Shown: piece after piece, positions 2,138-18,232 of the stretch
Layout: each line of letters begins with the position of its first letter
Position numbering within the stretch: the stretch's first letter is position 1
IMG/VR virus record: IMGVR_UViG_2778261667_000006
Location: 1-18,232 of that record
From: a virus
Lineage: Duplodnaviria > Heunggongvirae > Uroviricota > Caudoviricetes
Strand: one strand, 5' to 3'
DNA: 18,232 nt
Notes under the pieces: model-generated
What the model was told of the DNA's origin: nothing
The model's input: the letters and a program-made list of their open reading frames with translations, nothing else
Databases searched by the model: none
Position numbers and translations under genes: made by a program

Positions 2138-2206
2138 ACGAACATAGCCCCTTCATAAGCAATGAACCAAAGGAGAGTATGCTCAGTTTGTGATTTCCGT
2201 TGTTCT

Positions 2207-2225
2207 TCCCCCTGGTGCAGGGGGA
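2207..2225 (-). other. Intercistronic GC-rich stem-loop (7-bp stem CCCCCTG/CAGGGGG, 3-nt loop), no U-tract
   Basis: Perfect inverted repeat read directly from the sequence, between the 281-aa gene stop (2234) and the 148-aa gene start (2137). Confidence 0.4.
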
Positions 2226-2233
2226 GAGTGTGA

Positions 2234-3079
2234 TCAAACAGGCGGAAGGTGGTAATCTAAAGGCCAGGCATCTAGTGGGATCACATCAAGATGTAATTGC
2301 TTTTCTGCCGTTCTGTTCGGTATGGCGTTAAGAGAAATATTATCTACCTGGCAGGAAGCATCACTACTGTATAGCATATCAGCCATACTCTCAGTAACAT
2401 AAACACCTTCAATTACCGAAACATCCGTAGACAAGCAATTTAGTATTTCTGCCACTTCAGGGAATACAGCACTAAGCCGAAACGAGACGCCATCAAAAAC
2501 AATATGCAATGGCAACAAAGGGGCTATTACTGTTTCGAAGTCAGATAACAATTTCTGCACAGCGGATTCTTTATCCTGCTCTCCATATGATCGATATAGC
2601 TTGTTCTGATCAACAACGACAAGCCCCCTTGATGTCAGGAAGAACTCACCGAATTGAGCCTGTGCCGTAGGTATTTCTATTTCGGTCGCAAAATATGAAC
2701 CATAGGGGTGTTTTTCTATATTTACAGGAGCATACAGCGGTTCCCAACTAACAGGAATACAACCGAATTCACGCCAGAATGTCTGCTCAATAGGCAAGAT
2801 AGTGCCTTTAAAGTGCACTTCATCTAAACGTTGCGCCAGAAGCATTGGTCTGCGGGTCTTATCTTTTTCGGTGATAACGAAAAAACGCCCGTATTCGGCA
2901 ATGCGTGCATCCATATCCTCACTGTCCATCGTGAAGAAAGATTTCCTGTTACTTATCCGTGTTAAGATTGGTTCTACAGCTTCATTCCAGACATCCTGTA
3001 AAGCGTCTATAAAGGCACCCCAGAGACGAGAATCCTGTTTTACCTTAGTTAACCGTTCCTTAAGCCAATTATCTTTCAT
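2234..3079 (-). CDS. Baseplate protein, 281 aa; position equivalent to P2 gpI / Mu gp48-type baseplate component
   Basis: ORF-track frame; ATG with GAGG 6 nt upstream; sits between a J-like gene and the fibre gene. Function inferred from gene order, not from a recognised motif. Confidence 0.5.
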   Translation of the reverse strand: MKDNWLKERLTKVKQDSRLWGAFIDALQDVWNEAVEPILTRISNRKSFFTMDSEDMDARIAEYGRFFVITEKDKTRRPMLLAQRLDEVHFKGTILPIEQTFWREFGCIPVSWEPLYAPVNIEKHPYGSYFATEIEIPTAQAQFGEFFLTSRGLVVVDQNKLYRSYGEQDKESAVQKLLSDFETVIAPLLPLHIVFDGVSFRLSAVFPEVAEILNCLSTDVSVIEGVYVTESMADMLYSSDASCQVDNISLNAIPNRTAEKQLHLDVIPLDAWPLDYHLPPV

Positions 3080-3089
3080 GTCAACCTCA

Positions 3090-4520
3090 TTACGGATAAG
3101 AAATGCTGAACGTAGAAGATTTTACGTCAAGATAAATAAAGTCATTAAAGTAAACAGCATCCTTCATATTTTGTATTTTTATGTCATAAGAGAGAAACAT
3201 ATCCAGTGATTCTATTACTCGCCAAATATCTTTAACTTTTACCTGTGCATAACATTGCTGGGAATCATCATCACTCTGTAGTAATAAACTGAATGATGAC
3301 GAATCACGACCAAAATTATCTTCCAACGCTGCTTTAATAGCATTTTGAGCGTCGTCGATCAGAACATTTTTACGTGCAATACCTGTAAAATTTATAGTAA
3401 ATGGCTGTTCATTTGTATCTACATACTCGAACCGCTTGTTCAACTCATTTGGAACATTCTCTAGAGCTTTCAGTATTTCTGATTTTAGCTGAGCTTGGCT
3501 TACACCCGGCTTATGTCCGCAAAAGAAAATCTTGTTGATGTTTCGAACGTCAAACCCAGTTATTTTTTCTTGTAACGCTTCGCCCCAAACGTTCAACCAT
3601 GAAGTTCCATGTACAACATTCTGAATGAATTGGCGATAATCACCGCCCCATACCACTTGTTCATCGTATGCAACATAATACTGAGCACGATTTCGAGTTT
3701 CTTCTGTAGTTTCCATGCCACTACCACCGGTAATGATCGAATCAGTTTTAAACTCTAGTGACTCCACATATTGAGCGATATTTCCAACCGGTTCTAACTT
3801 TTGTCCTTCAGCCAAAGTATAGTCGCCAAGACTAGCCATAACATCAATTCGAACCTGACAACCTGCTGGCGGCATCATACCCATAGAGCCATCACCAAAT
3901 TTAACTCCAAGTTGTTCTGTAGGTTTATATGCCAATGAATAGTGCTTACTCTTGTCTCTGGACATTCTAAATAATGGGTTATATGTCCATTTTTCTTCTA
4001 CGCCATCTGTAATAACATAAACGTCTAGGCTAGAGACTTCTTTTGTTAACTCTCTGGAAAGCAACAACGTCAGAAATAAAGTTTCCTTCTCAATATCAAA
4101 TGTAACGCTAACAGCTTCGTGCTGTTTGATTTCTACGCCAGAAACAGTTCCTCCAGCAGGAACCACAACACTATTAATAATTGCCAAAGGTGTTTGGTCA
4201 TTAGCAAGCAATTCAGCCCCGGCTGGTAACGTAATATCCCGATCAGTTTTATTGGTTATAGACGTTGTTCCGTATGAAGCACTAACAAATCGCCCTACGT
4301 AGCTACGGTCTTCAGCAACAGCTAAAATACTTGAGCGGCGCGTAGCCGTTGAAATAAGTCCCTCAGTGAGTCCACGGCTTGCAAATGTACGGGCAATATA
4401 AATAACCTGTGATCCGAATATAGCGTGCATCTGCACAAACTGACTATTTACAAATCGTGACCACCATGTGTTTTCATTTAACTTGGCGTTAAATTTGTCC
4501 AGTAATTCTGTAATAGTCAC
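3090..4520 (-). CDS. Baseplate J-like protein, 476 aa
   Basis: ORF-track frame with a GTG start at 4520-4518 overlapping the upstream gene's TGA stop (GTGA, coupled). Size and position directly after a gpW/gp25-like gene match the conserved W-J-I-fibre order of contractile-tail baseplate modules. Confidence 0.5.
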   Translation of the reverse strand: MTITELLDKFNAKLNENTWWSRFVNSQFVQMHAIFGSQVIYIARTFASRGLTEGLISTATRRSSILAVAEDRSYVGRFVSASYGTTSITNKTDRDITLPAGAELLANDQTPLAIINSVVVPAGGTVSGVEIKQHEAVSVTFDIEKETLFLTLLLSRELTKEVSSLDVYVITDGVEEKWTYNPLFRMSRDKSKHYSLAYKPTEQLGVKFGDGSMGMMPPAGCQVRIDVMASLGDYTLAEGQKLEPVGNIAQYVESLEFKTDSIITGGSGMETTEETRNRAQYYVAYDEQVVWGGDYRQFIQNVVHGTSWLNVWGEALQEKITGFDVRNINKIFFCGHKPGVSQAQLKSEILKALENVPNELNKRFEYVDTNEQPFTINFTGIARKNVLIDDAQNAIKAALEDNFGRDSSSFSLLLQSDDDSQQCYAQVKVKDIWRVIESLDMFLSYDIKIQNMKDAVYFNDFIYLDVKSSTFSISYP

Positions 4521-4891
4521 GCGCCCACCCCACTTGATTTCTGCATAACAATATCCATGCTCCCACCTTTCGCATAAAAACTAATTAATAAAGAATCTTC
4601 AGAAATTGATGTGCAACGAATCCCCTGCACATCCAAACCTGGCAAGTCTTGTCGTAGTTTTTTCATCATTCTCCCTTCAATAGCCACTTCAACTATGTGT
4701 GAAGTTTCAGAGCCGAATGGTTCATGCTTAAATTCTTCCATTGGATTCCCCCAAGAAGGTAAGCCATAAACACTCCCTTCAGGGGTTCGTAGCCACTCGT
4801 CAAGGCGGGCCATCCACGCTGCGGTACTTCCTTCTGCAATAATGACACCGCTCTCATTCGTTTGAAGTCTTGCGTCTATTTCGTAAAGCAT
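4517..4891 (-). CDS. Baseplate wedge protein, gpW/gp25-like, 124 aa
   Basis: ORF-track frame; ATG with GAGGA upstream. The segment LDEWLRTPEGSVYGLPSWG resembles the ILRTPxGSR core motif I recall from P2 gpW / T4 gp25 family proteins; size and position fit. Confidence 0.55.
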   Translation of the reverse strand: MLYEIDARLQTNESGVIIAEGSTAAWMARLDEWLRTPEGSVYGLPSWGNPMEEFKHEPFGSETSHIVEVAIEGRMMKKLRQDLPGLDVQGIRCTSISEDSLLISFYAKGGSMDIVMQKSSGVGA

Positions 4892-4896
4892 CGGTA

Positions 4897-7800
4897 TTAA
4901 TCCTCAAGTAGAGCATCCAGCGACGGGTCATTAATAGTTGTGCTCGCACGTGGCCGCGGCTGCGGCTGCGATGTTTTGACAACCTTATCTGGATCTCCTT
5001 TTGTATCATTTTTGTTCACATTAAGAAGGTCTTTCAGAATAGAACAGATGTTATCCAGCGCCTTCAACATAGCAGGATCGTTATTTGCGGTGTCAGTAGT
5101 TAATGGTTGTCTTATTCCGCTTCGAGCAAGATCGGTTACTGTGGGAAGCTGTGGCGGCATAGCAAGAAAAGGTTCCTGCACGGCTGACGCAGAGCCAAAT
5201 ATGGTATTATTTGCCTCAGTTGATATTCCCCTGATGCTATCAGCGGTTTGCTGAATACCATTATTTAGCCAACCACCAGCACTTCTTGTAAGTGGGCTAA
5301 TCGCCCTGGCGATTGTTGAATTCTGCCCTGTAGCCTGATAGACAAAATCATTCAATATGCCAGTGCCATCGATGCCACCAACAAGTTGTGAAATGTTGTC
5401 ACCAATTGCAGGTAATACAGCCGAACCAATGCGCTTCATACCTGTTAATGACGAATCAAACAAAGAGCCAAGAAATCCCTTATCTTCGCCGTCTATTATC
5501 TTATTGCCATTGTTATAGACAGGAATTCCTTTTGAGTTTACTGGTGTTTTTTTATTATCTGTTGACTGTGAATCGCCAGAGAGAAGATCGACCGAAGATG
5601 TATCGCGTTCAGGTGCCGATCTTTTTTGTATAGCCTCTCTGATATCAGCCACCTGGGGAGCTTTTTTGAATCCAAAAGATTTACCGGTCAAGTTGGATAT
5701 CTTTTCGGTCAGAGCTTGATCCATTCCCTTCGCCTTTTCAGAGAGCGAAGATATAGAACCAAATGAAGTAGCTGACGCAAAATCCTTAACCAAGTCCAGA
5801 CTTGTACCAGCAAGACTGGTAGCCGCACCACCAAATAAATTACTTACTCCACTGATACCGCTTTCATTTATGGCGATTAACCGCTCAAGCAAACTCGATG
5901 GCGAGGCAGTATTAACATCAGAGTTCTCTGGATTAACCAGTTGTGGTTGGTTACCTGTTTTTTGTGTTTTTTTTGCTGCTTGGGCATGTTGAGCAACCTC
6001 AATTGGCTTAGGTGTTGCTGTTGGAACTGCATTCAATACAGGTTGTGCCGGAGATGTGCCATCAGCATATTTCACCTTGCGACCAACACTATATTGCGAA
6101 TCACGAGCAATTAGCTGACCGCCATTCTCTTTCTGAATTTTATTAAGCCGCGCCAATGTTTCATCGGAGAAACGCCCTTCCCAACGACCAGTATTTGCGT
6201 TGAATACCCCAAGGGCATTCTTTATGAACTCATTGTTAACCGCCGGGTTTCCGCCTTCTTTAGTCGCTATTGCGCGAACTAATTGCGTCATAACCTCTGG
6301 GTTGCCTACGTCTATTTTTTCATTAGGCGAGACACCAAGATATTTGCTGACGTTATCAATATATTGATTAGTATTGTTCTCCTTTGGGGGTGCCCATTTT
6401 GAAATAATACTGGATACCGTTTGTAACTTCTGATATCCGGCAGCGGCACTGGTGCCGTTATAATAGCTGGATACTTGGTTTGCCAGCGCCCTGATTCCTT
6501 CTTCAGGCGTGTTGAATCGGGCAAAACGCTGTTCACCTTTTGCATTTGGCGCTTCCAGCGTCGCCCCTTCCTGATTGGCAAAAACAAGATTGCCGAGATT
6601 ATTATTTCGGTAATTTCGGTTTTTAGCGTTGCTGCCGCCAATATTCAGATCAGCTGCAATGGTGTTGCTGGCAGGGGCATTAAATTCAGCCGGGGAAGTA
6701 TACCCGTGCTCACCAACACCATCTTCACCATCACGCCCGCCTTGTAGCTGCTCACCTAAAGAATGAATCGCATCAACGGTCTTCTTGGTGCCATCCTCAA
6801 CCGCTTTTTTTACTTGCTGCGTGTTTTCATCAGTGGATAAAAATTTATCCTTAAGGCTACCAAAAGCAGATTTAGTGATATCTACTGCGCCATTAACACC
6901 ACGCGCAATATCTCCGGTATCAAAATTCTGAAGTTTTTCACCTGCCCTTTCGAAGCCTAACGCAGAAATTCCTTTGCCTATTAGATTGGTTGCACCAGAA
7001 ACTAAGCCTCCCATATCAAGAACATTAGCGGTTGCGTAAGCGGTTTTTTGCTGTGTGGATACAACATCATCATCACTTAAGCCAAAGGCCGCTTTTTGCG
7101 CATCTGTATCTGTGTAACCATCTATAGCGTCATATCCAGCCATTGCCAACGACCCGATGATGGGGATCGCTCTTGCTGCTGTTGATGCTGCCGATTTCAC
7201 ACCTATTTTGGCAGCACTTTTGAGGGCTACAGATTCAGTTTTTTTCTTTGCAATGGTTTCACCGGTTTTAACTGCGGCATCTTCGGTAACGACACCGGCA
7301 GACTTAACGGCTTTTGCAGTATTTTTTGTTTCTTTAGCAGCCCCCTTAGAAGCGTCACTAGCCGTGCTTATATCTTTGGCTTTGCTAACATTAGTTTTAA
7401 CAGTCTTTGCAGTTCCTGCGCCAACGCCAGCCGCAGCGGTTCCGGCAGCGGCTTTTTCTCCAACGGAAAGGGCTTTTTTCCCCAGATTGCGTCCTTTCCT
7501 TTTCGGTTTGTGTCGTTTATTTCTGCTGGTCTGATCGCCAATATTGATTTTATTTCTTCTACCTGGCCGATTTCTCCAGAGATCACTTAAGCCGAACTTA
7601 TTCCCAGAAGACACCGACTTGCGAAGCTTAGCTACTTCGTCAGAGACATTTTCCAAACCATCAATTATTTTGTTGTCATTGGCCTGAAGAATTTTTGTTT
7701 GCTCTTCTACTGCTTGTGTAGATCTTGTCTCAACTGCATTATTAAATGCAGTTGCAGAGGTTGTTTTTTGTGCATTGGATGCAGCCGGATAAGTGATCGC

Positions 7801-8637
7801 TGGCGATTTCGCTTCGTGATCTGGTGGATTATCTACCCACTCCTTAAGAGATTTTGTTTTCCCTGTAATCTCTTTTGTTATGTCATACATGCCGCGAGCC
7901 GCCATCCATAACGGGCCACCAGCACCGACACCAGCAGCATTTGTTATGGCTTCTTCACCTGCAGACTGATGGCCATCCATCCCCATAATGGAACCTAGTT
8001 TTCGGAGGAAGCCTGCTTGTAATTTTGCGTCGGCTTTACGCGCGTTCTGCAATTCTTTTTTTCTGGCTATATCCTCATTGCTTTTCTGGGATACAAAGCG
8101 TCCATTACTATCCCGAATCGGGCCTTTTGGGCTTTGGGGGGGTTGAAGTTCCAGAGAGGCAGAATTAGCTGCTACCGGTATAGAATCTTTCGACCTTTTG
8201 ATGGACTGGCGTGATCGCACAGAATGAACGCTTTCTGGTGTGTTAGTTGCAACGATAGAGCGATCTATGCCCTGGTCTATTAGTGCCCTCTCCTTTTTCG
8301 CAGGAAGACGTTTTTTATATGGATTAGTTTGGGCATCTCTAACGACATCAGGAGCGTCTTGCTCGTAGTTTTTACGCCTACGGGATAGCCTGTTACTAAC
8401 TTTACCTTGCTGTCCTCCCTGTTGAGTTATAGCGACACCACCAGAAAGAATGGCGTCTTTTATCTCAGCAAGTGCCTTAAGTTCGTTTGCGCTCGCCCCC
8501 TGAATGGCGTCAATTATTGCGATTCGGTCTTTATTTTCTTTCAAAATAACCTCTCTTTTACCAGCGGCGCTCAACGTTTCCCGGCTTGAGCTTTGTATTT
8601 TTCTTCCAGGGCTTTTGACATATGGAGTGCTCGCCAT
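4897..8637 (-). CDS. Large tail protein, 1246 aa; tape-measure-like / P1 Sit-like candidate
   Basis: Single 3.7-kb frame. Basic N-terminus, Ala/Gly-rich hydrophobic glycine-zipper-like segments (AAAGVGAGGPLWMAARG, AAGTAAAGVGAGTAK, IPIIGSLAMAGYDAI), a central globular-looking block (NLGNLVFANQEG...FARFNTPEEGIRALANQVSSYY...ISKWAPP) and a low-complexity C-terminus. Lies directly upstream of the baseplate genes. Weak SD at the ATG. Confidence 0.6.
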   Translation of the reverse strand: MASTPYVKSPGRKIQSSSRETLSAAGKREVILKENKDRIAIIDAIQGASANELKALAEIKDAILSGGVAITQQGGQQGKVSNRLSRRRKNYEQDAPDVVRDAQTNPYKKRLPAKKERALIDQGIDRSIVATNTPESVHSVRSRQSIKRSKDSIPVAANSASLELQPPQSPKGPIRDSNGRFVSQKSNEDIARKKELQNARKADAKLQAGFLRKLGSIMGMDGHQSAGEEAITNAAGVGAGGPLWMAARGMYDITKEITGKTKSLKEWVDNPPDHEAKSPAITYPAASNAQKTTSATAFNNAVETRSTQAVEEQTKILQANDNKIIDGLENVSDEVAKLRKSVSSGNKFGLSDLWRNRPGRRNKINIGDQTSRNKRHKPKRKGRNLGKKALSVGEKAAAGTAAAGVGAGTAKTVKTNVSKAKDISTASDASKGAAKETKNTAKAVKSAGVVTEDAAVKTGETIAKKKTESVALKSAAKIGVKSAASTAARAIPIIGSLAMAGYDAIDGYTDTDAQKAAFGLSDDDVVSTQQKTAYATANVLDMGGLVSGATNLIGKGISALGFERAGEKLQNFDTGDIARGVNGAVDITKSAFGSLKDKFLSTDENTQQVKKAVEDGTKKTVDAIHSLGEQLQGGRDGEDGVGEHGYTSPAEFNAPASNTIAADLNIGGSNAKNRNYRNNNLGNLVFANQEGATLEAPNAKGEQRFARFNTPEEGIRALANQVSSYYNGTSAAAGYQKLQTVSSIISKWAPPKENNTNQYIDNVSKYLGVSPNEKIDVGNPEVMTQLVRAIATKEGGNPAVNNEFIKNALGVFNANTGRWEGRFSDETLARLNKIQKENGGQLIARDSQYSVGRKVKYADGTSPAQPVLNAVPTATPKPIEVAQHAQAAKKTQKTGNQPQLVNPENSDVNTASPSSLLERLIAINESGISGVSNLFGGAATSLAGTSLDLVKDFASATSFGSISSLSEKAKGMDQALTEKISNLTGKSFGFKKAPQVADIREAIQKRSAPERDTSSVDLLSGDSQSTDNKKTPVNSKGIPVYNNGNKIIDGEDKGFLGSLFDSSLTGMKRIGSAVLPAIGDNISQLVGGIDGTGILNDFVYQATGQNSTIARAISPLTRSAGGWLNNGIQQTADSIRGISTEANNTIFGSASAVQEPFLAMPPQLPTVTDLARSGIRQPLTTDTANNDPAMLKALDNICSILKDLLNVNKNDTKGDPDKVVKTSQPQPRPRASTTINDPSLDALLED

Positions 8638-8691
8638 TGCGGTAATTGTTCAACGTCACTAACGGGCTGATATCCATACAGAGTCAGGTTG

Positions 8692-9513: not shown

Positions 9514-9599
9514 GTATTCCTCCGATAAGCAGGTGTCTGTTTATTCGTTGGAGGATAGGTAGTGTGTGAAATTGGGAGGAGCTTTGTAATTCTTCTTTT

Positions 9600-9608
9600 T
9601 TATCCACA
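9600..9608 (+). promoter_or_regulatory. DnaA box, perfect consensus TTATCCACA, at the outer edge of the origin
   Basis: Exact 9-mer read from the sequence; position relative to the GATC cluster and iterons matches P1-type oriR architecture. Confidence 0.6.
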
Positions 9609-9612
9609 GGAT

Positions 9613-9662
9613 AGATCCAATATATAGATCCTGATTAGATCCATATAGTACCAAACAGATCC
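9613..9662. promoter_or_regulatory. Cluster of four GATC (Dam) sites in AGATCC(A) heptamer-like repeats within an AT-rich stretch; origin-opening / methylation-control region
   Basis: GATC at 9614-9617, 9627-9630, 9638-9641 and 9658-9661, each within AGATCC, lying between the DnaA box and the iterons. Confidence 0.6.
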
Positions 9663-9708
9663 CGTAGCTCTTCAGGCCGTGTCACATAAGGCTTTAACCA
9701 CATTTCAG

Positions 9709-9812
9709 ATGTGTGCTGGAGGGAAAACGATGTGTGCTGACGGGAAATATATGTGTGCTGGAGGGTTTTACATGTGTGCTGGCGGGATGTAGGATGTGTG
9801 CTGACGGGAAAA
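9709..9812 (+). repeat. incC-type iteron array: five direct 19-bp RepA-binding repeats (ATGTGTGCTGGAGGGAAAA and variants) at about 21-bp spacing
   Basis: Repeats start at 9709, 9730, 9751, 9772 and 9794. The sequence matches the P1 plasmid iteron consensus as I remember it; five repeats upstream of repA is the P1 incC arrangement. Confidence 0.85.
9766..9794 (+). promoter_or_regulatory. Putative sigma70 promoter of repA embedded in the iterons (-35 TTTACA, 17-bp spacer, -10 TAGGAT); expected to be autorepressed by RepA
   Basis: Hexamers read from the sequence; they overlap iterons 3-5. Autorepression through promoter-iteron overlap is established for P1 repA; its application here is inference. 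Confidence 0.35.
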
Positions 9813-9820
9813 AAAGTCGG

Positions 9821-9829
9821 ATATCCACT
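9821..9829 (+). promoter_or_regulatory. Possible second, imperfect DnaA box (ATATCCACT, 7 of 9) between the last iteron and repA
   Basis: Sequence match only. Confidence 0.25.
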
Positions 9830-9867
9830 GTCGTAAACTTTATTCACAACATGACGGTAACTTATTG

Positions 9868-10728
9868 ATGGATAAGTCATTTATCTCTGATATTCTTTAT
9901 GCTGACATTGAAAGCAAGGCAAAAGAATTAACAGTTAATTCGAACAATACTGTTCAACCTGTCGCGCTTATGCGGCTTGGTGTTTTCGTCCCTAAACCAA
10001 CTAAAAAACAGGGTGAAAACAACGAGATAGATGCATCATCTGTTTTTTCTAAACTGGAAATCGCTCAAGCAGAAGGCTACGACAATATCAAGATTACTGG
10101 TCCTCGTTTGGACATGGATACTGATTTCAAAGTCTGGATTGGGGTAATCTACTCATTTAGCAAATATGGCTTATCATCGAACACTATTCGTCTTTCTTTT
10201 CAAGAGTTTGCAAAGGCGTGCGGATTTCCATCTAAGCGACTTGATGGGAAATTAAGAAACACGATCCACGATTCTTTAGGTCGGTTACGTAACAAAGGCA
10301 TCTCATTCAAAAGAGGTAAAAGTGCTCGTGGAAGCTATAATACTGGCTTGCTTAAAACGGGATATTTTGACTTTGAAACAGATGTCGTTGAACTGGAGGC
10401 TGATTCCAAGTTATGGGAAATCTTCCAGCTAGACTATCGGGTGCTTCTACAGCAACACGCACTTCGTGCTTTACCTAAAAAAGAGGCAGCCCAGGCCATA
10501 TATACCTTTATAGAAAGTCTCCCGGCACGGCCAATACCTATTTCATTTGCCAGAATACGTGAAAGATTAGCCTTGATGTCATCGGTAAGTGAGCAAAACA
10601 GAACGATAAAAAAAGCTATAGACCAGTTAAAAACAATAGGTTATCTCGATTGCACTATTGAAAAGCAAGGACGAGAAAACTTTATTATCGTTCACTCTCG
10701 GAATCCGAAACTTAAACCAACAGATTAA
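9868..10728 (+). CDS. repA: Plasmid replication initiator RepA (P1/IncY iteron-binding type), 286 aa
   Basis: Frame flanked upstream by five and downstream by seven copies of the same 19-bp iteron. The ORF track starts at TTG 9865; I prefer the adjacent ATG at 9868. The only plus-strand gene in the window. Confidence 0.88.
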   Translation: MDKSFISDILYADIESKAKELTVNSNNTVQPVALMRLGVFVPKPTKKQGENNEIDASSVFSKLEIAQAEGYDNIKITGPRLDMDTDFKVWIGVIYSFSKYGLSSNTIRLSFQEFAKACGFPSKRLDGKLRNTIHDSLGRLRNKGISFKRGKSARGSYNTGLLKTGYFDFETDVVELEADSKLWEIFQLDYRVLLQQHALRALPKKEAAQAIYTFIESLPARPIPISFARIRERLALMSSVSEQNRTIKKAIDQLKTIGYLDCTIEKQGRENFIIVHSRNPKLKPTD

Positions 10729-10950
10729 ATGTGTGCTGAAGGGATAGATTCATACCTGGATGTGTGGTGGAGGGAATTTCGGGGGATTGCTTACTTCAGA
10801 TGTGTGCTGGTGGGATAAATGACGCTCTTTACATGCAAAATTCCCCTCCAGCACACATGTTTCCATTATCATTCCCTCTACAACACATCTTGAGCAATGG
10901 GGTTGCCCGGCAGCACACATTTAACGTAACCCCTTCCCTCCAGCACACAT
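10729..10950. repeat. incA-type iteron array downstream of repA: three direct and four inverted copies of the 19-bp iteron (copy-number control locus)
   Basis: Direct copies at 10729-10747, 10760-10778 and 10800-10818; inverted copies (TTCCCTCCAGCACACAT type) at 10841-10858, 10871-10888, 10903-10920 and 10933-10950, spaced about 30 bp apart. Confidence 0.8.
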
Positions 10951-10962
10951 AATTAAAGCGTT

Positions 10963-11670
10963 TCAGAATTTGATCACTCCACTAACCGCTCCCTTTAACG
11001 CACTTGTAGCCATGCCAGCGGCACCGTTGACCAAAGCAGAAACACCTGAGCCAGCGGATGTGTATTTCTGGAAAGTGATTGGGTATGACAAGAACTCTGA
11101 CACCTGATCACGTGAGCGGGTTATTTCCCCAAGTTGCGTAGGAAATACGCGCATTTCTTCTTCCAGTTCTTTTCCGCCGTCCTGAGTTACCCGATAGAGA
11201 CGGATTTTCATCAGATATTCAGGAGGTAGGTTTATTGTACCGTCCGGATTTGTTACGCGAGAACGACGCTCTTTGAACCAGTTCATGATCTTGCCGTCTT
11301 CGGTATCTCTTACGGTCATAGTGACAGGTCCGGCGCTAACGTAGGTTGGTTTACTGAACTCCACGCTGCCTATCACCTTGCTTTCTGTCTCAATGTTCCC
11401 ACTGCTGTAGGTGATATCCTTCACGAACATATCGAAGCCGTTCAGACCATCCACTTCCACGGTCCACTGCCACCCCTGGGCGTAACGGATACGCATAGCG
11501 GCAGCAACAATATTTTTCCCGTAGGCAATATCGCTACTGTAATTCCCGCTTACCCCGCCGCCTGATATGGCTTTATCAAGAATGTCGCTAATGAGGTTGC
11601 TGGTGAATGATTTCGTGTTAAATGACAATGCGGTGGTCAACGTTCTACCAACGCTGCTGAAAATACTCAC
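10963..11670 (-). CDS. Hypothetical structural protein, 235 aa
   Basis: ORF-track frame; GTG start with GGAGG 7 nt upstream; its stop is 12 bp from the last incA iteron. No motif recognised. Confidence 0.55.
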   Translation of the reverse strand: MSIFSSVGRTLTTALSFNTKSFTSNLISDILDKAISGGGVSGNYSSDIAYGKNIVAAAMRIRYAQGWQWTVEVDGLNGFDMFVKDITYSSGNIETESKVIGSVEFSKPTYVSAGPVTMTVRDTEDGKIMNWFKERRSRVTNPDGTINLPPEYLMKIRLYRVTQDGGKELEEEMRVFPTQLGEITRSRDQVSEFLSYPITFQKYTSAGSGVSALVNGAAGMATSALKGAVSGVIKF

Positions 11671-11685
11671 TCTGCGCCTCCAGCG

Positions 11686-12237
11686 TTAAAAAATGGTAGC
11701 CCCCGGAATAATTGCCCGATTTGAAGACATTTTTTCCTCAATCTCCTGCACGCGGGCATATAGCGTTGCTTCATCGGGTAGATCGGAGTAGTCAAATTTC
11801 CCGTCGATGGACGCTCGGCGCTGCCGTGCGACATTTCTGACATTGATAAGCGCCTCCAGATATTCCTCCAGCATTCCAATGATTGCAGGAGGCACTTGCC
11901 ATTGATCCAGCTTTCTGTCGCGTAGATTAACCAGATACAGCATCCGAAAAGGCCAGCTTTCCGAACCTGTTAGCTCTAATTCAATAAAGCCGGATAATTC
12001 ATCCGAATATACCAACAGGCCATTGTTGTCGGTAACATGAACCAGAGAGAGATAATCTTCTGGCAATGGGATTGCCGTGCCACTAGCTTTTTCAAGTTTT
12101 AATGTTTTCACTACCCCTGCCCTGTCCTGATACGTTGTTAGTGCTTTGATCAGGAAGGCTTTCAGCGTTTCTTCTTCACGCACAAGCAGTGGGTTAAATC
12201 GTGCTTTAACGCTTTCTAATAATTCGGTTGGTGTCAT
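11686..12237 (-). CDS. Hypothetical structural protein, 183 aa
   Basis: ORF-track frame; ends 15 nt before the 235-aa gene start; weak SD. The overlapping 70-aa ORF at 11667-11879 is treated as spurious. Confidence 0.55.
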   Translation of the reverse strand: MTPTELLESVKARFNPLLVREEETLKAFLIKALTTYQDRAGVVKTLKLEKASGTAIPLPEDYLSLVHVTDNNGLLVYSDELSGFIELELTGSESWPFRMLYLVNLRDRKLDQWQVPPAIIGMLEEYLEALINVRNVARQRRASIDGKFDYSDLPDEATLYARVQEIEEKMSSNRAIIPGATIF

Positions 12238-12249
12238 CGTGTCTACAAC

Positions 12250-12284
12250 TCAAAAACAAAGATGTTCCCGCCACAAGGGCGGGA
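12250..12284 (-). terminator. Intrinsic-terminator-like hairpin (7-bp stem TCCCGCC/GGCGGGA, 5-nt loop) followed on the minus strand by a T-rich tract (ACATCTTTGTTTTTG)
   Basis: Inverted repeat at 12266-12284 and downstream T-run read from the sequence; sits just after the stop of the 163-aa tube-like gene. The T-tract is interrupted, so it may be a partial terminator. Confidence 0.4.
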
Positions 12285-12291
12285 GCGGGGA

Positions 12292-12783
12292 TTATTCTGC
12301 CCAGTTGTAAACAATACGCAGGGAAGGCTTAACGACTGCCGTTACGTCTTCTGAGGAGAAGTCGACGGCGTCGGAATATACTTTGCAGTGAGAATATGTG
12401 CGGATCAGACCTTTATGGTTGCCGCTATTGGATTCAGCCGCTGCCTGTAAGGTAATTTCCTGATATTCTTTGCCGTATACCATTTGTTTTACAGCGGCGA
12501 GAACTGCGCCCTCGATGGTTTCTGCACATGTGACCTGAAATTCACCAGAGTTACGTAGTGGTCCGTGCTGGTTGAATTTCATGCCGCCAGGAGCGTAATC
12601 TTCCACATCTTCGCGTGTCATTTCTGGTAACTGAGCAGTACGAACCAGTACAGACAGATGCTCATAACCTTTAATGGTCATCCAATATTCAGAGCCAATA
12701 AGTTTTTCGCCCGCAGCCAGGTTTTTATTAAACCGGGATTTCAGAAAGGCCATATCGGCTTTTGTATTTGCAAAACCGGACAT
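12292..12783 (-). CDS. Tail tube-like protein, 163 aa (T4 gp19-like candidate)
   Basis: ATG with AGGAG 6 nt upstream. Same length as T4 gp19 and a similar C-terminal ending (...VYNWAE versus gp19 ...DYWE as I recall it); followed by a terminator-like hairpin, as is common after abundant tube genes. The resemblance is remembered, not computed. Confidence 0.45.
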   Translation of the reverse strand: MSGFANTKADMAFLKSRFNKNLAAGEKLIGSEYWMTIKGYEHLSVLVRTAQLPEMTREDVEDYAPGGMKFNQHGPLRNSGEFQVTCAETIEGAVLAAVKQMVYGKEYQEITLQAAAESNSGNHKGLIRTYSHCKVYSDAVDFSSEDVTAVVKPSLRIVYNWAE

Positions 12784-12791
12784 AAATACTC

Positions 12792-13382
12792 CTACACAAA
12801 AACAGATGAGATATTGCTACGGTTAATAGAGGTGTTTCCGCTGCATTGCAGGGTTACCGTGTTATGAGTGAAATAGCCTTCCGGTGTGCGCGGGGCGTCC
12901 AGTTGGTAACTCACGCTTTTGATAACAACGTCGGTAAGGGCTATGTTTCTACCTATGTTTAACGTTACCGTTTCCGGGCGGCGACCGAATGGCGCTACAT
13001 TGTTCAATTCCGGCGATTCCATCTTCAGCAATGCTGTAATGGCTGCGTTCACTTCGAGTTGTGCGTTCACTGTCGCCATGAAATCAATAACCAGATTAAA
13101 TTCAGGCGGTTGCTGACCTTCCCAAACAAGCATTGAGTTAAAGAGGGTCTTTGTTGTTACGCTGGTTGCGGTCTGAAGTGTATCCGCAAGAGAGCCAGCC
13201 GCTGCGCTAATACCGCCAAGCAACCCACCGACTGACTGGTTTTCAAATGGTGATTGCCACATTGATGACAGTTCTGCGGTAGAGCCTTCACCGATATAAC
13301 CGACGACCATATCCTCAGTGGAGAGGATATAAACCTTCATTAATGGACTTATTCCGTCAGGCATTATCGCGCCGCAAATCAA
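12792..13382 (-). CDS. Hypothetical tail protein, 196 aa (possible second tube-family or tube-associated protein)
   Basis: ORF-track frame; start is TTG at 13382 with a strong GGGAGG 8 nt upstream and an in-frame TAG immediately before; the internal ATGs lack an SD. Confidence 0.5.
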   Translation of the reverse strand: MICGAIMPDGISPLMKVYILSTEDMVVGYIGEGSTAELSSMWQSPFENQSVGGLLGGISAAAGSLADTLQTATSVTTKTLFNSMLVWEGQQPPEFNLVIDFMATVNAQLEVNAAITALLKMESPELNNVAPFGRRPETVTLNIGRNIALTDVVIKSVSYQLDAPRTPEGYFTHNTVTLQCSGNTSINRSNISSVFV

Positions 13383-13431
13383 ACGCTATTCCTCCCAGAT
13401 AGAGGCCACCTTTGCAGGCGGCCTGTGTCAC

Positions 13432-14166
13432 TTACAAGCCGCGTTTTTTGCGAATTCGCATTGATTTTTTGCGGTTGATATTCGCTACGGATGTATGCGC
13501 TTTACGGCGTGCTTTTTTCAGCGCCTGTTTTTGCAGTGACGTCATGCGGCGAGGGCGCGGGCGCTTGCGGATAATGGTAACCTTGCCATCACGAACAACT
13601 TTTTTACGTACCGCTTCCAGCATTGCGCTGTCACCACCAGCAACGGTGTAAATGGCAATAGCCGCTTCCAGCATGTCGCCGTCGCTTTCGGAAAGTGCGT
13701 CATATACACGTTCAGCAGCAGAGTCATCTTCATCGTCGATCATTTCTGTTACGTCGTCCTGATCCGCGCCAAGAGCAACAGCGGCATCAGCAAGGGCTGC
13801 GAGAGCATCGTTATAAGCATCGATTTGTTCATCGGTAAAATCGGTGTCTTCATCGATATCAGCCAGGCCAGCCATAGTGATTGCTAATGCATCAAATGAG
13901 TCAGCCTCCGGATCACCATCTTCAACCCAACCTGCAAGCATGGAAGCCGCCAGGCTGCGCATATCTCCTTGTGCGCGAGACTCAACCGCTTCCATCATCG
14001 CGGTTTCAATATCTTTTTTGGGCTTTGCTTGAGTGTTAGCTCCTTTCTGTTCGGCGCTTTCCAGCATGGCTTTATCATCATTTCCCGGCGTGGATTTATC
14101 ACCGCTTTCAAAGCAGCCAGAACCAAAAATCGCACGCATAAAAGGATCAGCAGTATAATTTTTCAT
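13432..14166 (-). CDS. Strongly acidic protein with a poly-basic C-terminal tail, about 244 aa; function unknown
   Basis: ORF-track frame 13432-14190, but the first ATG lies inside a hairpin; I prefer the ATG at 14166 with GGAGAGAGG upstream. Residues about 80-200 are Asp/Glu-rich; the last about 45 residues are Lys/Arg-rich (KRPRPRRMTSLQKQALKKARRKAHTSVANINRKKSMRIRKKRGL). Confidence 0.6.
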   Translation of the reverse strand: MKNYTADPFMRAIFGSGCFESGDKSTPGNDDKAMLESAEQKGANTQAKPKKDIETAMMEAVESRAQGDMRSLAASMLAGWVEDGDPEADSFDALAITMAGLADIDEDTDFTDEQIDAYNDALAALADAAVALGADQDDVTEMIDDEDDSAAERVYDALSESDGDMLEAAIAIYTVAGGDSAMLEAVRKKVVRDGKVTIIRKRPRPRRMTSLQKQALKKARRKAHTSVANINRKKSMRIRKKRGL

Positions 14167-14181
14167 TTTCAAACCTCTCTC

Positions 14182-14201
14182 CCCCCGCATTTCTGCGGGG
14201 G
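14182..14201 (-). other. Intercistronic stem-loop (8-bp stem CCCCCGCA/TGCGGGGG; GAAA tetraloop on the mRNA strand), no U-tract
   Basis: Perfect inverted repeat between the 552-aa gene stop (14209) and the SD of the acidic protein gene. Confidence 0.4.
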
Positions 14202-14208
14202 TAATAAA

Positions 14209-15867
14209 TCAGCGCATCAGAATTGGCTTACCGACGATGCGGCGAGCTGTACCGGTTGGGCATACAGACCAGGACACTTCCCACAGATCGATGTCTTTCT
14301 GGACAACCTGGACGACATACGGTTCTTCTCCCTGAGATTGGTCACGTGGAGTCACCAGCGCACCAGACGCAACGAAGCGGTCAAGCAATTCGGTCATTGC
14401 CTTCATTAGCGTTTCTTTAGTAATGCCATCTGGTTCATGCTTAATTGTCTGAGCAACCTCATAGAAATTGCGGGCAATAGCATTCATCAGAGACGAAACA
14501 TGCTGGAATCGCAGATAGTTGTTTTTACTGAAAGTTGTTAAAGAGTCGTCGATGTAGACAGAACCATCAGCAGCAACAGAAACTGGATTAATGCGCGCGG
14601 TAACGAACGCTTCACGATCAACTGCACCGATATTTGGAATTCGGGCAATATTCTGTCGGTCAATAGTCGCGCGAGATATGCCAGCCGGAGCGTAATGCCA
14701 ACCGCCAACATCAGAAACCAGCGCAACACCTTTCGCTTTTGCGACAAATGCATCGCAACTGATGCCGTAAACAACATTCATACCAGTGAAGGTATCCCGG
14801 CAGGAAAATGGGAAGTAGTAACGGCTTGGTTGATGTGAGCCGCCAAAACTATGGCTTTTGGCTTCTGAAATGGCATTTTCTGGTGTCTGGTTGCCCTTCA
14901 GGTCGTAGAACATGTCTACGCGAACGTCTTCAGCCAGATTTTTGAGCGCGGCTAAGGCGGATGCGTCATAGCAGCCCAGTGACAGCAATGCGGTGTAATT
15001 AACCTCTGAAGCTTCGAGGACTTTTAATGCTTCCAGATAGTCTTCAGTGTCAATGGTGGACAGATCGCCATCAGTGCCGCCTTCAAAAGCTACATCCTCA
15101 AACATGAGTTGAGCAGCAGATGCTTCCGCATTATCTGCCAGGACGGCACCAATGCGAGTGGACTGGCTTTCAAGCAGTGTCGGAATCCATGCTGGTTGGC
15201 CCATGTCGTTAGTGCCTTCTGGATTGAAGGACACCTGGTGGCTTTCCAGCACCTCAACGGACCCATCGGTTTGTTTTTCTTTCAGCGTCAGCGTAAAGAG
15301 TTCGCTTTCTTCATCATCGCGAGTTAGTGATAACATGCGATTTTGAGATGCATCACCATCTTTGATGAAGAATACGGCCATCCCATCATCGTTAATCTGG
15401 GGTGTCTCTTTTGGAGTGAAGGTGACTGATTTCGTTGTTGCAGTTGAAGCAATACCAACGCTCAATGTGTCACCTGGATTTACTGTGGTTTCAGTAGGCT
15501 CCACGGTAAGTGTTTTGTTTGCCTTAGCCGCTTTTGCTCTGCCCGCAACGGAAACAGAAATACCTGGCACCTTCATGTCTTTAGCGCAAACACGAACGAC
15601 ATAACCAGAGCCGCCTTTTACTGCACGCTCCACGTGGCGGTATGGTTCAAATGCTGATCCCAGGCGAGGGTGAATAGGTGAACCTAATACGCTTTGATAA
15701 GTCGTATCGTCAACTTTCAGCACTTTACCCGGTGCGCCACGACGCGATATTACAAGTCCAGCAAAGACGGATGCGCCACCGCTGGTATTGGTGAGGGTAG
15801 CGTCAGCATTTACCGACATAACAGCGACGCCAGCCGCCTGCCCTACCGAAAAACTAATCTTATTCAT
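14209..15867 (-). CDS. Tail sheath protein candidate, 552 aa
   Basis: ORF-track frame; ATG with GAGGA upstream. The N-terminal pattern (...SVFAGLVISRRGAPGKVLKVDDTTYQSVLGSP) resembles the sheath N-terminal pattern I recall from T4 gp18-type proteins; size and position upstream of tube-like genes fit. Confidence 0.5.
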   Translation of the reverse strand: MNKISFSVGQAAGVAVMSVNADATLTNTSGGASVFAGLVISRRGAPGKVLKVDDTTYQSVLGSPIHPRLGSAFEPYRHVERAVKGGSGYVVRVCAKDMKVPGISVSVAGRAKAAKANKTLTVEPTETTVNPGDTLSVGIASTATTKSVTFTPKETPQINDDGMAVFFIKDGDASQNRMLSLTRDDEESELFTLTLKEKQTDGSVEVLESHQVSFNPEGTNDMGQPAWIPTLLESQSTRIGAVLADNAEASAAQLMFEDVAFEGGTDGDLSTIDTEDYLEALKVLEASEVNYTALLSLGCYDASALAALKNLAEDVRVDMFYDLKGNQTPENAISEAKSHSFGGSHQPSRYYFPFSCRDTFTGMNVVYGISCDAFVAKAKGVALVSDVGGWHYAPAGISRATIDRQNIARIPNIGAVDREAFVTARINPVSVAADGSVYIDDSLTTFSKNNYLRFQHVSSLMNAIARNFYEVAQTIKHEPDGITKETLMKAMTELLDRFVASGALVTPRDQSQGEEPYVVQVVQKDIDLWEVSWSVCPTGTARRIVGKPILMR

Positions 15868-15905
15868 GCTGTGTTCTTATCCTCTAAAGCGAGAGAACTA
15901 GGCAA

Positions 15906-15930
15906 GGCTACCCACGGTTAATGGGCAGCC
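15906..15930 (-). other. Imperfect intercistronic hairpin (GGCTaCCCA / TGGGcAGCC, 7-nt loop)
   Basis: Inverted repeat with one mismatch, between the Ig-like gene stop and the sheath gene start. Confidence 0.25.
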
Positions 15931-15935
15931 TCTGA

Positions 15936-16214
15936 TCAGGATTCGCTTACCGTGAAATTGTCGCCTACGGTTACTTCTTTCGTAGTCGGTTCAACACTGA
16001 CGGCGCTTACGCTTTTAGGTGCCTCCCTAACAGTGACTGTGCACTGTGCGGTTTTATTGCCGTCATTGGTTTTGATTGTCAGCACTGCCTGCCCGGCCTT
16101 AAGAGCGGTACATGTAGTGCCATCAACCTGGACAATTTCAGGGTGATCGGACTCAACAGTGAAAGATTTGTCTGTTGCGTCAGATGGCGAGATAGTTACT
16201 TGAATGTTTGCCAT
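15936..16214 (-). CDS. Ig-like (Big_2-type) domain protein, 92 aa; probable capsid decoration or accessory protein
   Basis: ATG with AGGAG 7 nt upstream. The sequence VTISPSD...FTVESD...TALKAGQAVLTIKTNDGNKTAQCTVTV has the strand pattern of a bacterial Ig-like domain; the C-terminus (SVSAVSVEPTTKEVTVGDNFTV) looks like the first strand of a second, truncated copy. Confidence 0.6.
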   Translation of the reverse strand: MANIQVTISPSDATDKSFTVESDHPEIVQVDGTTCTALKAGQAVLTIKTNDGNKTAQCTVTVREAPKSVSAVSVEPTTKEVTVGDNFTVSES

Positions 16215-16227
16215 TCTTTTCTCCTGA

Positions 16228-16254
16228 ACGCCCCTTATTCAGGGGCGTGTTTTT
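16228..16254 (+). terminator. Plus-strand intrinsic terminator (8-bp stem ACGCCCCT/AGGGGCGT, 5-nt loop, then GTTTTT) inside a minus-strand operon
   Basis: Perfect inverted repeat followed by T5 on the plus strand only. On the minus strand the same hairpin sits directly upstream of the SD of the Ig-like gene, with no U-tract. Confidence 0.45.
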
Positions 16255-16361
16255 GCCTTACTTCTGCTTTGTTTTTTTCTGTGCCTTTGAAGTGTTCGCG
16301 GCGATAGTTTCACCTTCATCTACGTCAAGTGACGTTGGTGATACCGACACGTTCGCCACCA

Positions 16362-18059: not shown

Positions 18060-18232
18060 GGTTAAGCCCTAAATTCGGGCGCGGCGTGAAGGTTCTTTTG
18101 ACGAGCTAACAATACCAACTTTGTGATTTAGTCAATAGCATTAGCAAAATAAAATCTGTTAACAGTTCCGTTGTTATGTGATTTAATTTTAGTTTTCTAA
18201 TACAAATTATTGGACGTATGGCGTATAAGATC
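18060..18232 (-). promoter_or_regulatory. AT-rich non-coding region upstream of the capsid gene; probable late-operon promoter region, element not identified
   Basis: No plausible ORF and low GC; no confident -35/-10 pair found, consistent with an activator-dependent late promoter. Confidence 0.25.

What the first reader, a model, noticed from the sequence alone, without database searches (positions are those of the whole stretch)
2207..16254. Family of C-rich/G-rich intercistronic hairpins punctuating the late operon
Five intergenic gaps between structural genes carry a short perfect or near-perfect stem-loop: 2208-2224, 12266-12284, 14182-14201, 15906-15930 and 16228-16248. In the mRNA (minus) sense each has a C-rich 5' arm and a G-rich 3' arm of 7-8 bp. 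Only one (12266-12284) has a U-rich tail on the coding strand. The others sit immediately 5' of a ribosome-binding site. This looks like a system for setting structural-protein stoichiometry through partial termination, RNase protection or control of translation initiation.
Basis: seen in the sequence. Interest (0 to 1): 0.45.

Follow-up and report, generated by a model that had tools for sequence, protein, structure and literature searches.

The report
Gene-end RNA hairpins in phage late operons
The short GC-rich stem-loops between the structural genes of this P1/D6-like phage-plasmid are real and are kept at the same gene junctions across distant relatives, but they belong to an already familiar class: terminator-type RNA hairpins without a U-tail that most likely protect or trim messenger-RNA ends.

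Summary
The window is a D6-like member of the phage P1 family (92% identical to Escherichia phage D6). All five reported hairpins exist at the stated coordinates (dG -12 to -20 kcal/mol). Every perfect GC-rich hairpin in the 18 kb lies in a short gap between late genes, 3-9 nt after a stop codon. In about 160 related loci, hairpins occupy the same junctions, above all after genes 23 and 21, down to about 40% protein identity. Their stem sequences are entirely different, with compensatory changes. G.U pairs and GNRA/UUCG tetraloops occur in the mRNA sense, so the selected object is RNA. The hairpins share no sequence consensus, so they are not REP-like. They are too short for RNase III, and five of six lack the U-tract of an intrinsic terminator. 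Similar hairpins punctuate the whole D6 genome, including early and toxin-antitoxin operons. Hairpin A marks the end of one late operon, just upstream of a late promoter, as in P1. The others lie inside the operon that starts at gene 23. Best reading (confidence 0.45): barriers to 3'-exonucleases and perhaps weak terminators that shape mRNA segment abundance, as with U-less stem-loops at E. coli Rho-dependent 3' ends and the leaky terminators of phiX174. This is a new member of a known kind, of modest interest. A likely -1 frameshift at the end of the capsid gene was noticed in passing.

The parts
2207..2225 (-). Hairpin A: 8-bp stem, 3-nt loop, 8 nt after the stop of gene 16. It marks the end of the pmgB-sit-pmgA-bplA-16 unit and lies about 10 nt upstream of the late-promoter box for R-S.
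   Evidence: conserved with changed stem and loop in the D6 and MIN14 clades; P1 has the same arrangement
12266..12284 (-). Hairpin B: 7-bp stem, 5-nt loop, 7 nt after the bplB stop and 28 nt before the pmgC start. A U-rich stretch begins 5 nt after the stem.
   Evidence: relatives
13403..13424 (-). It lies 7 nt after the stop of gene 21 and 7 nt before the SD GGAGGA of pmgG.
   Evidence: present in 42 of 43 distinct relatives' junctions; covariation
14182..14201 (-). Hairpin C: 8-bp stem with a GAAA tetraloop, 7 nt after the stop of sheath gene 22. The SD of gene 21 follows directly.
   Evidence: relatives
15904..15932 (-). Hairpin D: 12-bp stem with one G.U (a C-A mismatch on the other strand), 3 nt after the stop of the Ig-like gene and 36 nt before the gene 22 start.
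   Evidence: covariation
16228..16248 (-). Hairpin E: 8-bp stem, 9 nt after the stop of the small -1-frame ORF that follows capsid gene 23. The SD AGGAG of the Ig-like gene lies 2 nt downstream. On the plus strand it is followed by T5.
   Evidence: relatives
18109..18127 (-). Candidate late promoter for gene 23 (ATCACAAAG-N4-TATTGT). It defines the start of the unit that contains hairpins E, D, C, F and B.
   Evidence: P1 LP23 lies at the equivalent place
9552..9570 (-). Candidate late promoter for pmgB (TTCACACAC-N4-TATCCT). It starts the unit that ends at hairpin A.
2176..2194 (-). Candidate late promoter for R-S (ATCACAAAC-N4-CATACT), immediately 3' of hairpin A.
   Evidence: P1 LPs with a mapped transcription start lies in the same gap

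Best explanation
The six elements are RNA stem-loops in the late mRNA. They have the same build as the hairpin of an intrinsic terminator but lack its U-tract.

Most likely they act after transcription as roadblocks to 3'-to-5' exonucleases (PNPase, RNase II). Any transcript that ends downstream, whether by endonuclease cleavage, Rho action or weak termination, would be trimmed back to the hairpin. The message segment upstream of the hairpin (capsid gene 23, the Ig-like gene, sheath gene 22, gene 21, bplB, gene 16) would then be kept.

Hairpin A does this at a true operon end, just before the next late promoter. Hairpins E, D, C, F and B do it inside the nine-gene unit that starts at gene 23, producing nested, differentially stable segments. 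Some weak pausing or termination at these sites is possible.

Shown here: the existence of the hairpins, their placement at gene ends, their conservation with covariation, their RNA-sense signatures, and the absence of a U-tract. Inferred: the exonuclease-barrier function and any effect on protein ratios.
For: 1. Placement. Each hairpin lies 3-9 nt after a stop codon, while the distance to the next start varies from 13 to 69 nt. Six of the seven late-gene gaps of 40 nt or more hold a hairpin, and all other junctions are 15 nt or less.
2. Gap size tracks the hairpin. In relatives that lack the hairpin the gap collapses: 22-21 has a median gap of 20 nt (range -19 to 93) without a hairpin and 39-156 nt with one; bplB-pmgC has a median of 4 nt (range 1-150) without and 51-150 nt with.
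3. Conservation. Hairpins after gene 21 are found in 42 of 43 distinct junctions. They are also found after gene 23 and, wherever the Ig-like gene is present, after that gene. This holds down to about 37-45% protein identity with unrelated stem sequences, P1 included. Compensatory changes occur in 5 of 11 pairs and 6 of 7 pairs.
4. RNA, in the mRNA sense. With strand-symmetric detection, internal mismatches are G.T 12 versus A.C 3. GNRA/UNCG tetraloops number 15 of 34 in the sense strand and 3 of 34 in the antisense, against 1.6 expected. The sense fold is the more stable in 99 junctions and the antisense in 42.
5. Hairpin A and its P1 counterpart lie upstream of the late promoter and of P1's mapped transcription start. 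They can therefore only be 3' elements of the upstream unit.
6. A hairpin follows bplB both in D6-type genomes (next gene pmgC) and in P1 (next gene pmgF), so it goes with the upstream gene.
7. Host precedent. [quoted passage not shown]
Against: There are no transcript data, so function is inferred from anatomy and conservation only.

The G.U and tetraloop counts come from related sequences and are not phylogenetically independent.

A pure gradient model does not fit tub. It is a high-copy tail-tube gene, yet it lies last in the unit, after five hairpins.

Three hairpins (C, E, F) abut strong Shine-Dalgarno sequences, which would also suit a role in translation.

In some relatives the orthologous hairpin carries a proper U-tract, for example L003 after gene 21 and P1 after bplB. 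Termination therefore cannot be excluded.
Confidence: 0.45

Rival explanations
1. The hairpins are leaky intrinsic terminators or pause sites. RNA polymerase stops at each one with low efficiency, giving a stepwise fall in transcription along the operon, as in phiX174.
For: They have the same hairpin build and C-first polarity as the canonical U-tailed terminators elsewhere in D6. B has a U-rich stretch. Orthologous hairpins in some relatives have true U-tracts. phiX174 uses four terminators of varying strength between its capsid genes (PMC9135205). Internal terminators with low U content set subunit ratios in Clostridia (PMC9045158).
Against: Five of the six have no U-tract. The T-weight is 0-0.9, against 4.7 for the trp attenuator. 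Across 103 distinct relatives' hairpins the first 8 nt after the stem hold about 2 T, which is background. B's tail is separated from the stem by 5 nt and is not conserved. E. coli RNA polymerase is not known to terminate efficiently at U-less hairpins (own knowledge). Essential genes, including tub, lie downstream with no late-promoter box in between.
Confidence: 0.2
2. The hairpins are translational insulators. A stable hairpin between the stop codon and the next ribosome-binding site uncouples the downstream cistron from the heavily translated upstream one, by blocking ribosome sliding or re-initiation or by keeping the SD free of long-range pairing.
For: C, E and F end 2-8 nt before strong SD sequences. 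Hairpins occur only where neighbouring genes are not overlapped or tightly abutted. The stop codon lies 3-9 nt before the stem, so a terminating ribosome must melt it.
Against: Hairpin A and its P1 counterpart lie upstream of the promoter that makes the R mRNA. D and B are 36 and 28 nt from the next start. The same hairpins, at the same 2-10 nt distance from the stop codon, occur at convergent gene ends where there is no downstream cistron.
Confidence: 0.15
3. The palindromes act at the DNA level, as protein-binding sites, recombination or replication signals, or they are functionless by-products of palindrome-prone mutation.
For: The loop of hairpin A is inverted between close relatives (GCATTT versus AAATGC), a DNA-level palindrome event. 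In several clades the arms of the hairpin after gene 21 carry the Chi octamer on both strands.
Against: The six share no sequence consensus, and stems turn over completely between clades while pairing is kept. G.U pairs and GNRA/UUCG loops are biased to the mRNA sense. The hairpins are distinct from the late-promoter boxes.
Confidence: 0.05
4. The hairpins are RNase III processing sites like those between phage T7 genes.
For: They are intercistronic and lie in phage late mRNA.
Against: The stems are 7-12 bp. RNase III substrates need roughly two helical turns, about 20 bp (own knowledge).
Confidence: 0.02

Closest known systems
U-less protective stem-loops at the steady-state 3' ends of E. coli Rho-dependent transcripts (Dar and Sorek 2018, PMC6061677)
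   Same: They are energetically stable GC-rich stem-loops just after a gene, not followed by a U-rich stretch, in the same host. Their documented role is protection against PNPase and RNase II.
   Different: Five of the six here lie inside a polycistronic unit, 13-36 nt before the next translated gene. That leaves no room for a downstream rut site, and no 3'-end data exist for this phage.
phiX174 intercistronic terminators (TJ, TF, TG, TH) between capsid genes
   Same: Hairpins placed after successive structural genes of a phage late transcript. Read-through gives stepwise decreasing transcript levels thought to match virion stoichiometry. phiX174 also has an overlapping terminator-promoter element, like hairpin A followed by its late promoter (PMC9135205).
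   Different: The phiX174 elements are described as terminators of varying strength. The hairpins here lack U-tracts, and the gene order (tub last) does not follow a simple abundance gradient.
Canonical intrinsic (Rho-independent) terminators
   Same: The stem length, GC content, loop size, C-first/G-last polarity and placement 2-10 nt after stop codons match those of the U-tailed terminators elsewhere in D6.
   Different: There is no U-tract immediately 3' of the stem in A, C, D, E and F. In B it is displaced by 5 nt and not conserved.
Internal low-U terminators that set subunit ratios in ABC-importer operons (PMC9045158)
   Same: Stem-loops in intergenic regions inside operons, with low U content and GC-rich stems. 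They are proposed to fix the ratio of flanking transcripts through both termination and folding energy.
   Different: They come from a different organism and RNA polymerase context (Clostridia), and those were tested experimentally.
REP/BIME extragenic palindromes of enterobacteria
   Same: Intercistronic palindromes that can stabilise upstream mRNA.
   Different: REPs are a repeated sequence family with a consensus. The six hairpins here share no more similarity than shuffled sequence.
Phage T4 intercistronic tetraloop hairpins (C(UUCG)G and GNRA; own knowledge, Tuerk et al. 1988)
   Same: There is an excess of unusually stable tetraloops in the mRNA sense: GAAA in C, GCAA in F, and UUCG, GNRA and UNCG loops in relatives.
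   Different: The function of the T4 hairpins is itself only partly defined, and there is no sequence relationship.

Membership tests
Canonical intrinsic terminator | GC-rich stem of about 5-14 bp with a 3-8 nt loop | tested here: met
   All six have 7-12 bp stems, 3-5 nt loops and dG of -12.7 to -19.7.
Canonical intrinsic terminator | U-tract immediately 3' of the stem on the transcribed strand | tested here: not met
   The T-weight is 0.0-0.9 in the mRNA sense, against 4.7 for the trp attenuator control. B is the only one flagged by the pattern scan, and its U-run starts 5 nt after the stem. Tails of 103 relatives' hairpins hold T at background level.
Canonical intrinsic terminator | Releases RNA polymerase and creates a 3' end in vitro or in vivo | not testable with these tools
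   This needs in vitro transcription or Term-seq.
U-less protective stem-loops of Rho-dependent or processed 3' ends (PMC6061677) | A stable stem-loop just after a gene, not followed by a U-rich sequence | tested here: met
   definition taken
U-less protective stem-loops of Rho-dependent or processed 3' ends (PMC6061677) | A steady-state RNA 3' end at the base of the stem, dependent on PNPase or RNase II trimming | not testable with these tools
   No transcript data are available for D6-like phages. The P1 RNA-seq paper found gives no 3'-end resolution.
phiX174-type leaky intercistronic terminators | Hairpins placed after successive structural genes within one late transcription unit | tested here: met
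   E, D, C, F and B lie between the gene-23 late promoter and tub, and no further late-promoter box was found between them.
phiX174-type leaky intercistronic terminators | Stepwise fall in transcript abundance across each element | not testable with these tools
   This requires RNA-seq or Northern blots.
REP/BIME repeated palindromes | Copies share a sequence consensus | tested here: not met
   The mean pairwise local score is 6.9, against 5.8 +/- 1.3 for shuffles. There is no match to a REP consensus recalled from memory and no Rfam family.
RNase III processing site (T7 type) | About 20 bp or more of duplex RNA | tested here: not met
   The stems are 7-12 bp.
P1-type late promoter element (-22 box bound through Lpa) | A conserved 9-bp box, a 4-nt spacer and a -10 hexamer upstream of late genes | tested here: not met
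   The hairpins are not the boxes. The P1 consensus AAGTTACTT-N4-TAnnAT is absent from the window. The D6-type box ATCACAnnC-N4-YAYNNT lies beside hairpin A, not within it, and is absent from the other five gaps.

The most novel reading that the evidence does not exclude
The hairpins form a deeply conserved punctuation code of the P1 supergroup that works without a U-tract through a mechanism other than decay protection. One version is translation-dependent attenuation: a ribosome stopping 3-9 nt upstream decides whether the hairpin forms and whether polymerase or downstream ribosomes continue. Another is a response specific to the Lpa/SspA-modified RNA polymerase. Either would couple virion protein ratios to translation status.
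Probability: 0.1. Interest if true: 0.55.

Novelty: new member of a known kind. Interest (0 to 1): 0.3.

Why it matters
If the hairpins do control segment stability or read-through, they would explain how one Lpa-dependent promoter can feed nine morphogenetic genes whose products are needed in very different amounts. They would also be useful landmarks for annotating P1-like phage-plasmids, which are common carriers of resistance genes in Enterobacteriaceae.

The comparative result is solid and gives precise sites for mutagenesis: position is conserved while sequence turns over completely, and the RNA-sense signatures are present. The concept itself, gene-end protective or leaky-terminator hairpins, is already established, so the gain is incremental.

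Tried and rejected
- I searched the window for the P1 late-promoter consensus, to test whether the hairpins are Lpa boxes. There were no meaningful matches. The D6-type box was then derived from the whole D6 genome.
- An Rfam scan at E<=1 gave nothing.
- The Lobocka 2004 P1 genome paper and the Gilcrease & Casjens 2018 D6 paper are not held. Whether they list these hairpins as terminators could not be checked. The P1 GenBank record annotates promoters but no terminators in these regions.
- A d'Aubenton-Carafa-style discriminant recalled from memory scored even lambda tR2 and a clear D6 terminator as negative, so only its T-weight term was used.
- My first sense-versus-antisense energy comparison was biased, because the hairpins had been chosen on the sense fold. 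I repeated it with independent scans and with strand-symmetric detection.
- The P1 RNA-seq paper and the T4 post-transcription review contained nothing at the needed resolution.
- The coding-region control for hairpin energy is only roughly matched and is cited only for gap sizes.
- The REP, RNase III and DNA-binding-site readings were rejected for the reasons given under rival explanations.
Full report
**What the window is.** The 18.2-kb window is 92% identical over 91% of its length to Escherichia phage D6, a P1-family plasmid prophage.

Using the D6 annotation and the ORF list, the genes on the minus strand are:
- 23 (major capsid protein), 16362-18059
- a small ORF, 'orf50', 16258-16362
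- an Ig-like (Big_2) gene, 15936-16214
- 22 (tail sheath), 14209-15867
- 21, 13432-14166
- pmgG, bplB, pmgC
- tub (tail tube), 10963-11670
- then pmgB, sit, pmgA, bplA, 16, R and S.

A plasmid replicon (repA with its iterons) sits on the plus strand between tub and pmgB.

All five reported stem-loops are at the stated coordinates, with folding energies of -12.7 to -19.7 kcal/mol.

A search for perfect hairpins (at least 7 bp, at least 5 GC pairs, loop 3-8) finds four sites in the whole window. All four lie in the short gaps between late genes. Dinucleotide shuffles give 1.2 +/- 1.1 such sites anywhere in the window. Those gaps total about 350 nt of the 18,232.

A 30-nt sliding fold of the minus strand puts five intergenic hairpins in the top five places.

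Each of the six begins 3-9 nt after a stop codon. The distance to the next start codon varies from 13 to 69 nt. Six of the seven late-gene gaps of 40 nt or more contain a hairpin. Every other junction is 15 nt or less, or overlaps.

**Transcription units.** P1 late promoters consist of a 9-bp '-22 box', a 4-nt spacer and a -10 hexamer (annotation; sequences). That consensus is absent from the window.

A different box appears instead. ATCACAnnC-N4-YAYNNT occurs at eight intergenic sites in D6. All eight lie 50-157 nt upstream of late or morphogenetic genes: 23, pmgB, R, prt, ddrB, 7, mat and orf16. The window has it upstream of 23, of pmgB and of R.

- 23 through tub, which contains hairpins E, D, C, F and B
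- pmgB through 16, which ends at hairpin A
- R-S.

Hairpin A ends about 10 nt before the box of the R-S promoter. P1 has the same layout: the stop of gene 16, then a CCCCGUCC/GGCGGGG hairpin, then the -22 box of LPs, with an experimentally annotated transcription start further downstream. Hairpin A can therefore only belong to the 3' end of the upstream unit.

**Conservation.** I compared the junctions in:
- D6
- a 76%-identical E. coli plasmid (pMUB-MIN14-1)
- a 68%-identical Citrobacter plasmid
- P1
- 159 IMG/VR loci found with sheath and gp16 profiles.

The results by junction:
- After gene 21, a hairpin is present in 42 of 43 distinct junction sequences, down to 37% protein identity. It usually starts 6-8 nt after the stop. 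The stems are unrelated between clades, for example GCCGCCGG, GAGCCACCAGC, CGCCCCCGC, and GGAGGCCGG in P1.
- After gene 23, or after orf50 in the D6 clade, hairpins are likewise general and include P1.
- After the Ig-like gene, all ten distinct sequences have one.
- After 22 and after bplB, the hairpin is clade-specific. Where it is absent, the gap shrinks to a median of 20 nt (22-21) and 4 nt (bplB-pmgC). Where it is present, the gap is 39-156 nt.
- Hairpin A is kept in the D6 and MIN14 clades and in P1, but is variable elsewhere.

RNAalifold finds compensatory double changes in 5 of 11 pairs for the hairpin after the Ig-like gene and in 6 of 7 pairs for the hairpin after gene 21.

**RNA or DNA, and which strand.** The C-rich-then-G-rich polarity cannot identify the strand, because a palindrome has the same polarity on both strands. 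It is nevertheless a real bias, with 78 hairpins C-first and 16 G-first. The canonical terminators of D6 share it.

Strand-specific evidence comes from three tests:
- With hairpins detected in a strand-symmetric way, internal mismatches are G.T in 12 cases (a wobble pair in the mRNA) and A.C in 3 cases.
- Of 34 tetraloops, 15 are GNRA or UNCG in the mRNA sense and 3 in the antisense, with 1.6 expected. In the window, C has GAAA and F has GCAA.
- When each strand is scanned independently, the sense fold is the more stable in 99 junctions and the antisense in 42.

These counts come from related sequences and so overstate independence. All three tests point the same way.

**What the hairpins are not.**
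- Not a repeated sequence family. Pairwise similarity equals that of shuffles and there is no Rfam match.
- Not RNase III sites. The stems are only 7-12 bp.
- Not the late-promoter boxes.
- Not canonical intrinsic terminators. The T-weight of the 3' tail is 0-0.9, against 4.7 for the trp attenuator. Across relatives, the 8 nt after the stem hold about 2 T, which is background.
- B was the only one flagged by the pattern scan. Its U-run starts 5 nt from the stem and is lost in D6 and MIN14.

**Not special to the late genes.** In the complete D6 genome, 20 of 26 perfect GC-rich hairpins lie in the roughly 9 kb that is not annotated as coding. They occur:
- at convergent gene ends, often with U-runs on both sides
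- between co-directional late genes
- inside early and toxin-antitoxin operons without U-runs.

All are 2-10 nt from stop codons.

**Mechanism.** The best-supported reading is that these are protective 3' stem-loops. [quoted passage not shown]

On this reading, hairpin A stabilises the end of the pmgB-16 message. The internal hairpins would stabilise the segments upstream of any cleavage or premature end. That enriches the messages for capsid, Ig-like and sheath proteins relative to later genes. I give this reading 0.45.

The rivals are:
- Leaky termination (0.2). It is the phiX174 solution (PMC9135205) and that of low-U internal terminators (PMC9045158). It gains support from relatives whose orthologous hairpin has a real U-tract. 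The lack of U-tracts here weakens it, and so does tub lying downstream of five hairpins.
- Translational insulation (0.15). It fits C, E and F, which abut strong SD sequences. It does not fit A, the convergent-end hairpins or D.
- DNA-level or no function (0.05).
- RNase III processing (0.02).

**Novelty.** This is a new member of a known kind. Conservation of position with complete sequence turnover across the P1 supergroup is a clean comparative result, and I could not find it described. P1 maps are said to mark Rho-independent terminators, so some of these hairpins may already be listed.

**Seen in passing.** Capsid gene 23 ends ...GAA AAA AAG TGA. The heptamer A_AAA_AAG is the dnaX-type -1 slippery site, and it lies directly before the stop codon.

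The -1 frame continues for 36 codons and corresponds to D6 'orf50'. In three relatives this frame is conserved at the amino-acid level but has no start codon of its own. A stem-loop of about 67 nt (-25 kcal/mol) begins 5-6 nt after the heptamer.

The extension matches positions 2-22 of the Big_2 profile. The next gene matches only positions 23-79. Joined, they match positions 2-79 with a higher score, 39.8 bits against 31.3. Hairpin E lies between the two halves.

Frameshift-derived Ig-like extensions of phage coat proteins are known (PMC5009743). A Big_2 domain split between a frameshift extension and a separate gene would be unusual.

Noticed in passing
window 16293-16371 (minus strand); relatives L002, L016, L017, L049: There is a probable -1 programmed ribosomal frameshift at the end of capsid gene 23. 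The heptamer A_AAA_AAG (16365-16371) lies directly before the stop codon. The -1 frame adds about 36 residues and corresponds to D6 'orf50'. That frame is conserved at the amino-acid level in relatives where it has no start codon. A stem-loop of about 67 nt (-25 kcal/mol) starts 5-6 nt downstream of the heptamer.
   Followed up: partly
window 16258-16361 and 15936-16214 (minus strand): A Big_2 Ig-like domain appears to be split. The frameshift extension matches Big_2 profile positions 2-22. The separate 92-aa Ig-like protein matches only positions 23-79 and ends with another first-strand-like segment. Joined in silico they give a full-length match (39.8 versus 31.3 bits). This could be an ancient fusion interrupted by a stop codon, hairpin E and an RBS. 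It could also be strand complementation that anchors the Ig protein to the capsid. No structure was predicted.
   Followed up: partly
window 18109-18127, 9552-9570, 2176-2194 (minus strand); D6 genome, eight sites: D6-type late promoters seem to keep the P1 architecture (9-bp box, 4-nt spacer, -10 hexamer) but with a different box: ATCACAnnC instead of P1's AAGTTACTT. All eight intergenic matches in D6 lie 50-157 nt upstream of late genes.
   Followed up: partly
window 9514-10962: A plasmid replicon (repA on the plus strand, flanked by ATGTGTGCTGG-type iterons) is inserted between tub and pmgB inside the late-gene array. No hairpin or terminator follows tub. Late transcription from the gene-23 promoter would therefore run into the iterons and antisense through repA.
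   Followed up: no
window 5273, 7916, 10806, 13634, 16789, 17845; relatives' hairpins after gene 21 (e.g. L003, L028, L044): The Chi octamer GCTGGTGG occurs six times, against 0.55 expected, and five of the six are on the minus strand. In several related clades the hairpin after gene 21 is GCCACCAGC...GCTGGTGGC, which places Chi on both strands.
   Followed up: partly
L091 versus L094 (orthologues of window 2207-2225): The loop of hairpin A is inverted between close relatives: TTCTTCCCCC-GCATTT-GGGGGAAGAA versus the same stem with the loop AAATGC. This is a signature of template switching at palindromes.
   Followed up: no
window 2138-2186 (minus strand): A second predicted stem pairs the -10 and early-transcript region of the R-S promoter with the Shine-Dalgarno region of R (GAGCAUAC...GAAGGGGCUAUGUUC). 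It would form only in read-through transcripts from the upstream unit and could mask the R start in them. A similar structure is predicted in MIN14.
   Followed up: no
window 13382 (minus strand): pmgG probably starts at the TTG at 13382, 6 nt after GGAGGA, and not at the ATG used in the D6 annotation. Relatives have an ATG at the equivalent position.
   Followed up: partly
window 16228-16258 (plus strand): Read on the plus strand, hairpin E is followed by GTTTTTG and scores as a terminator for transcription antisense to the late genes. The A-run responsible is kept in the D6 clade but not in MIN14.
   Followed up: no
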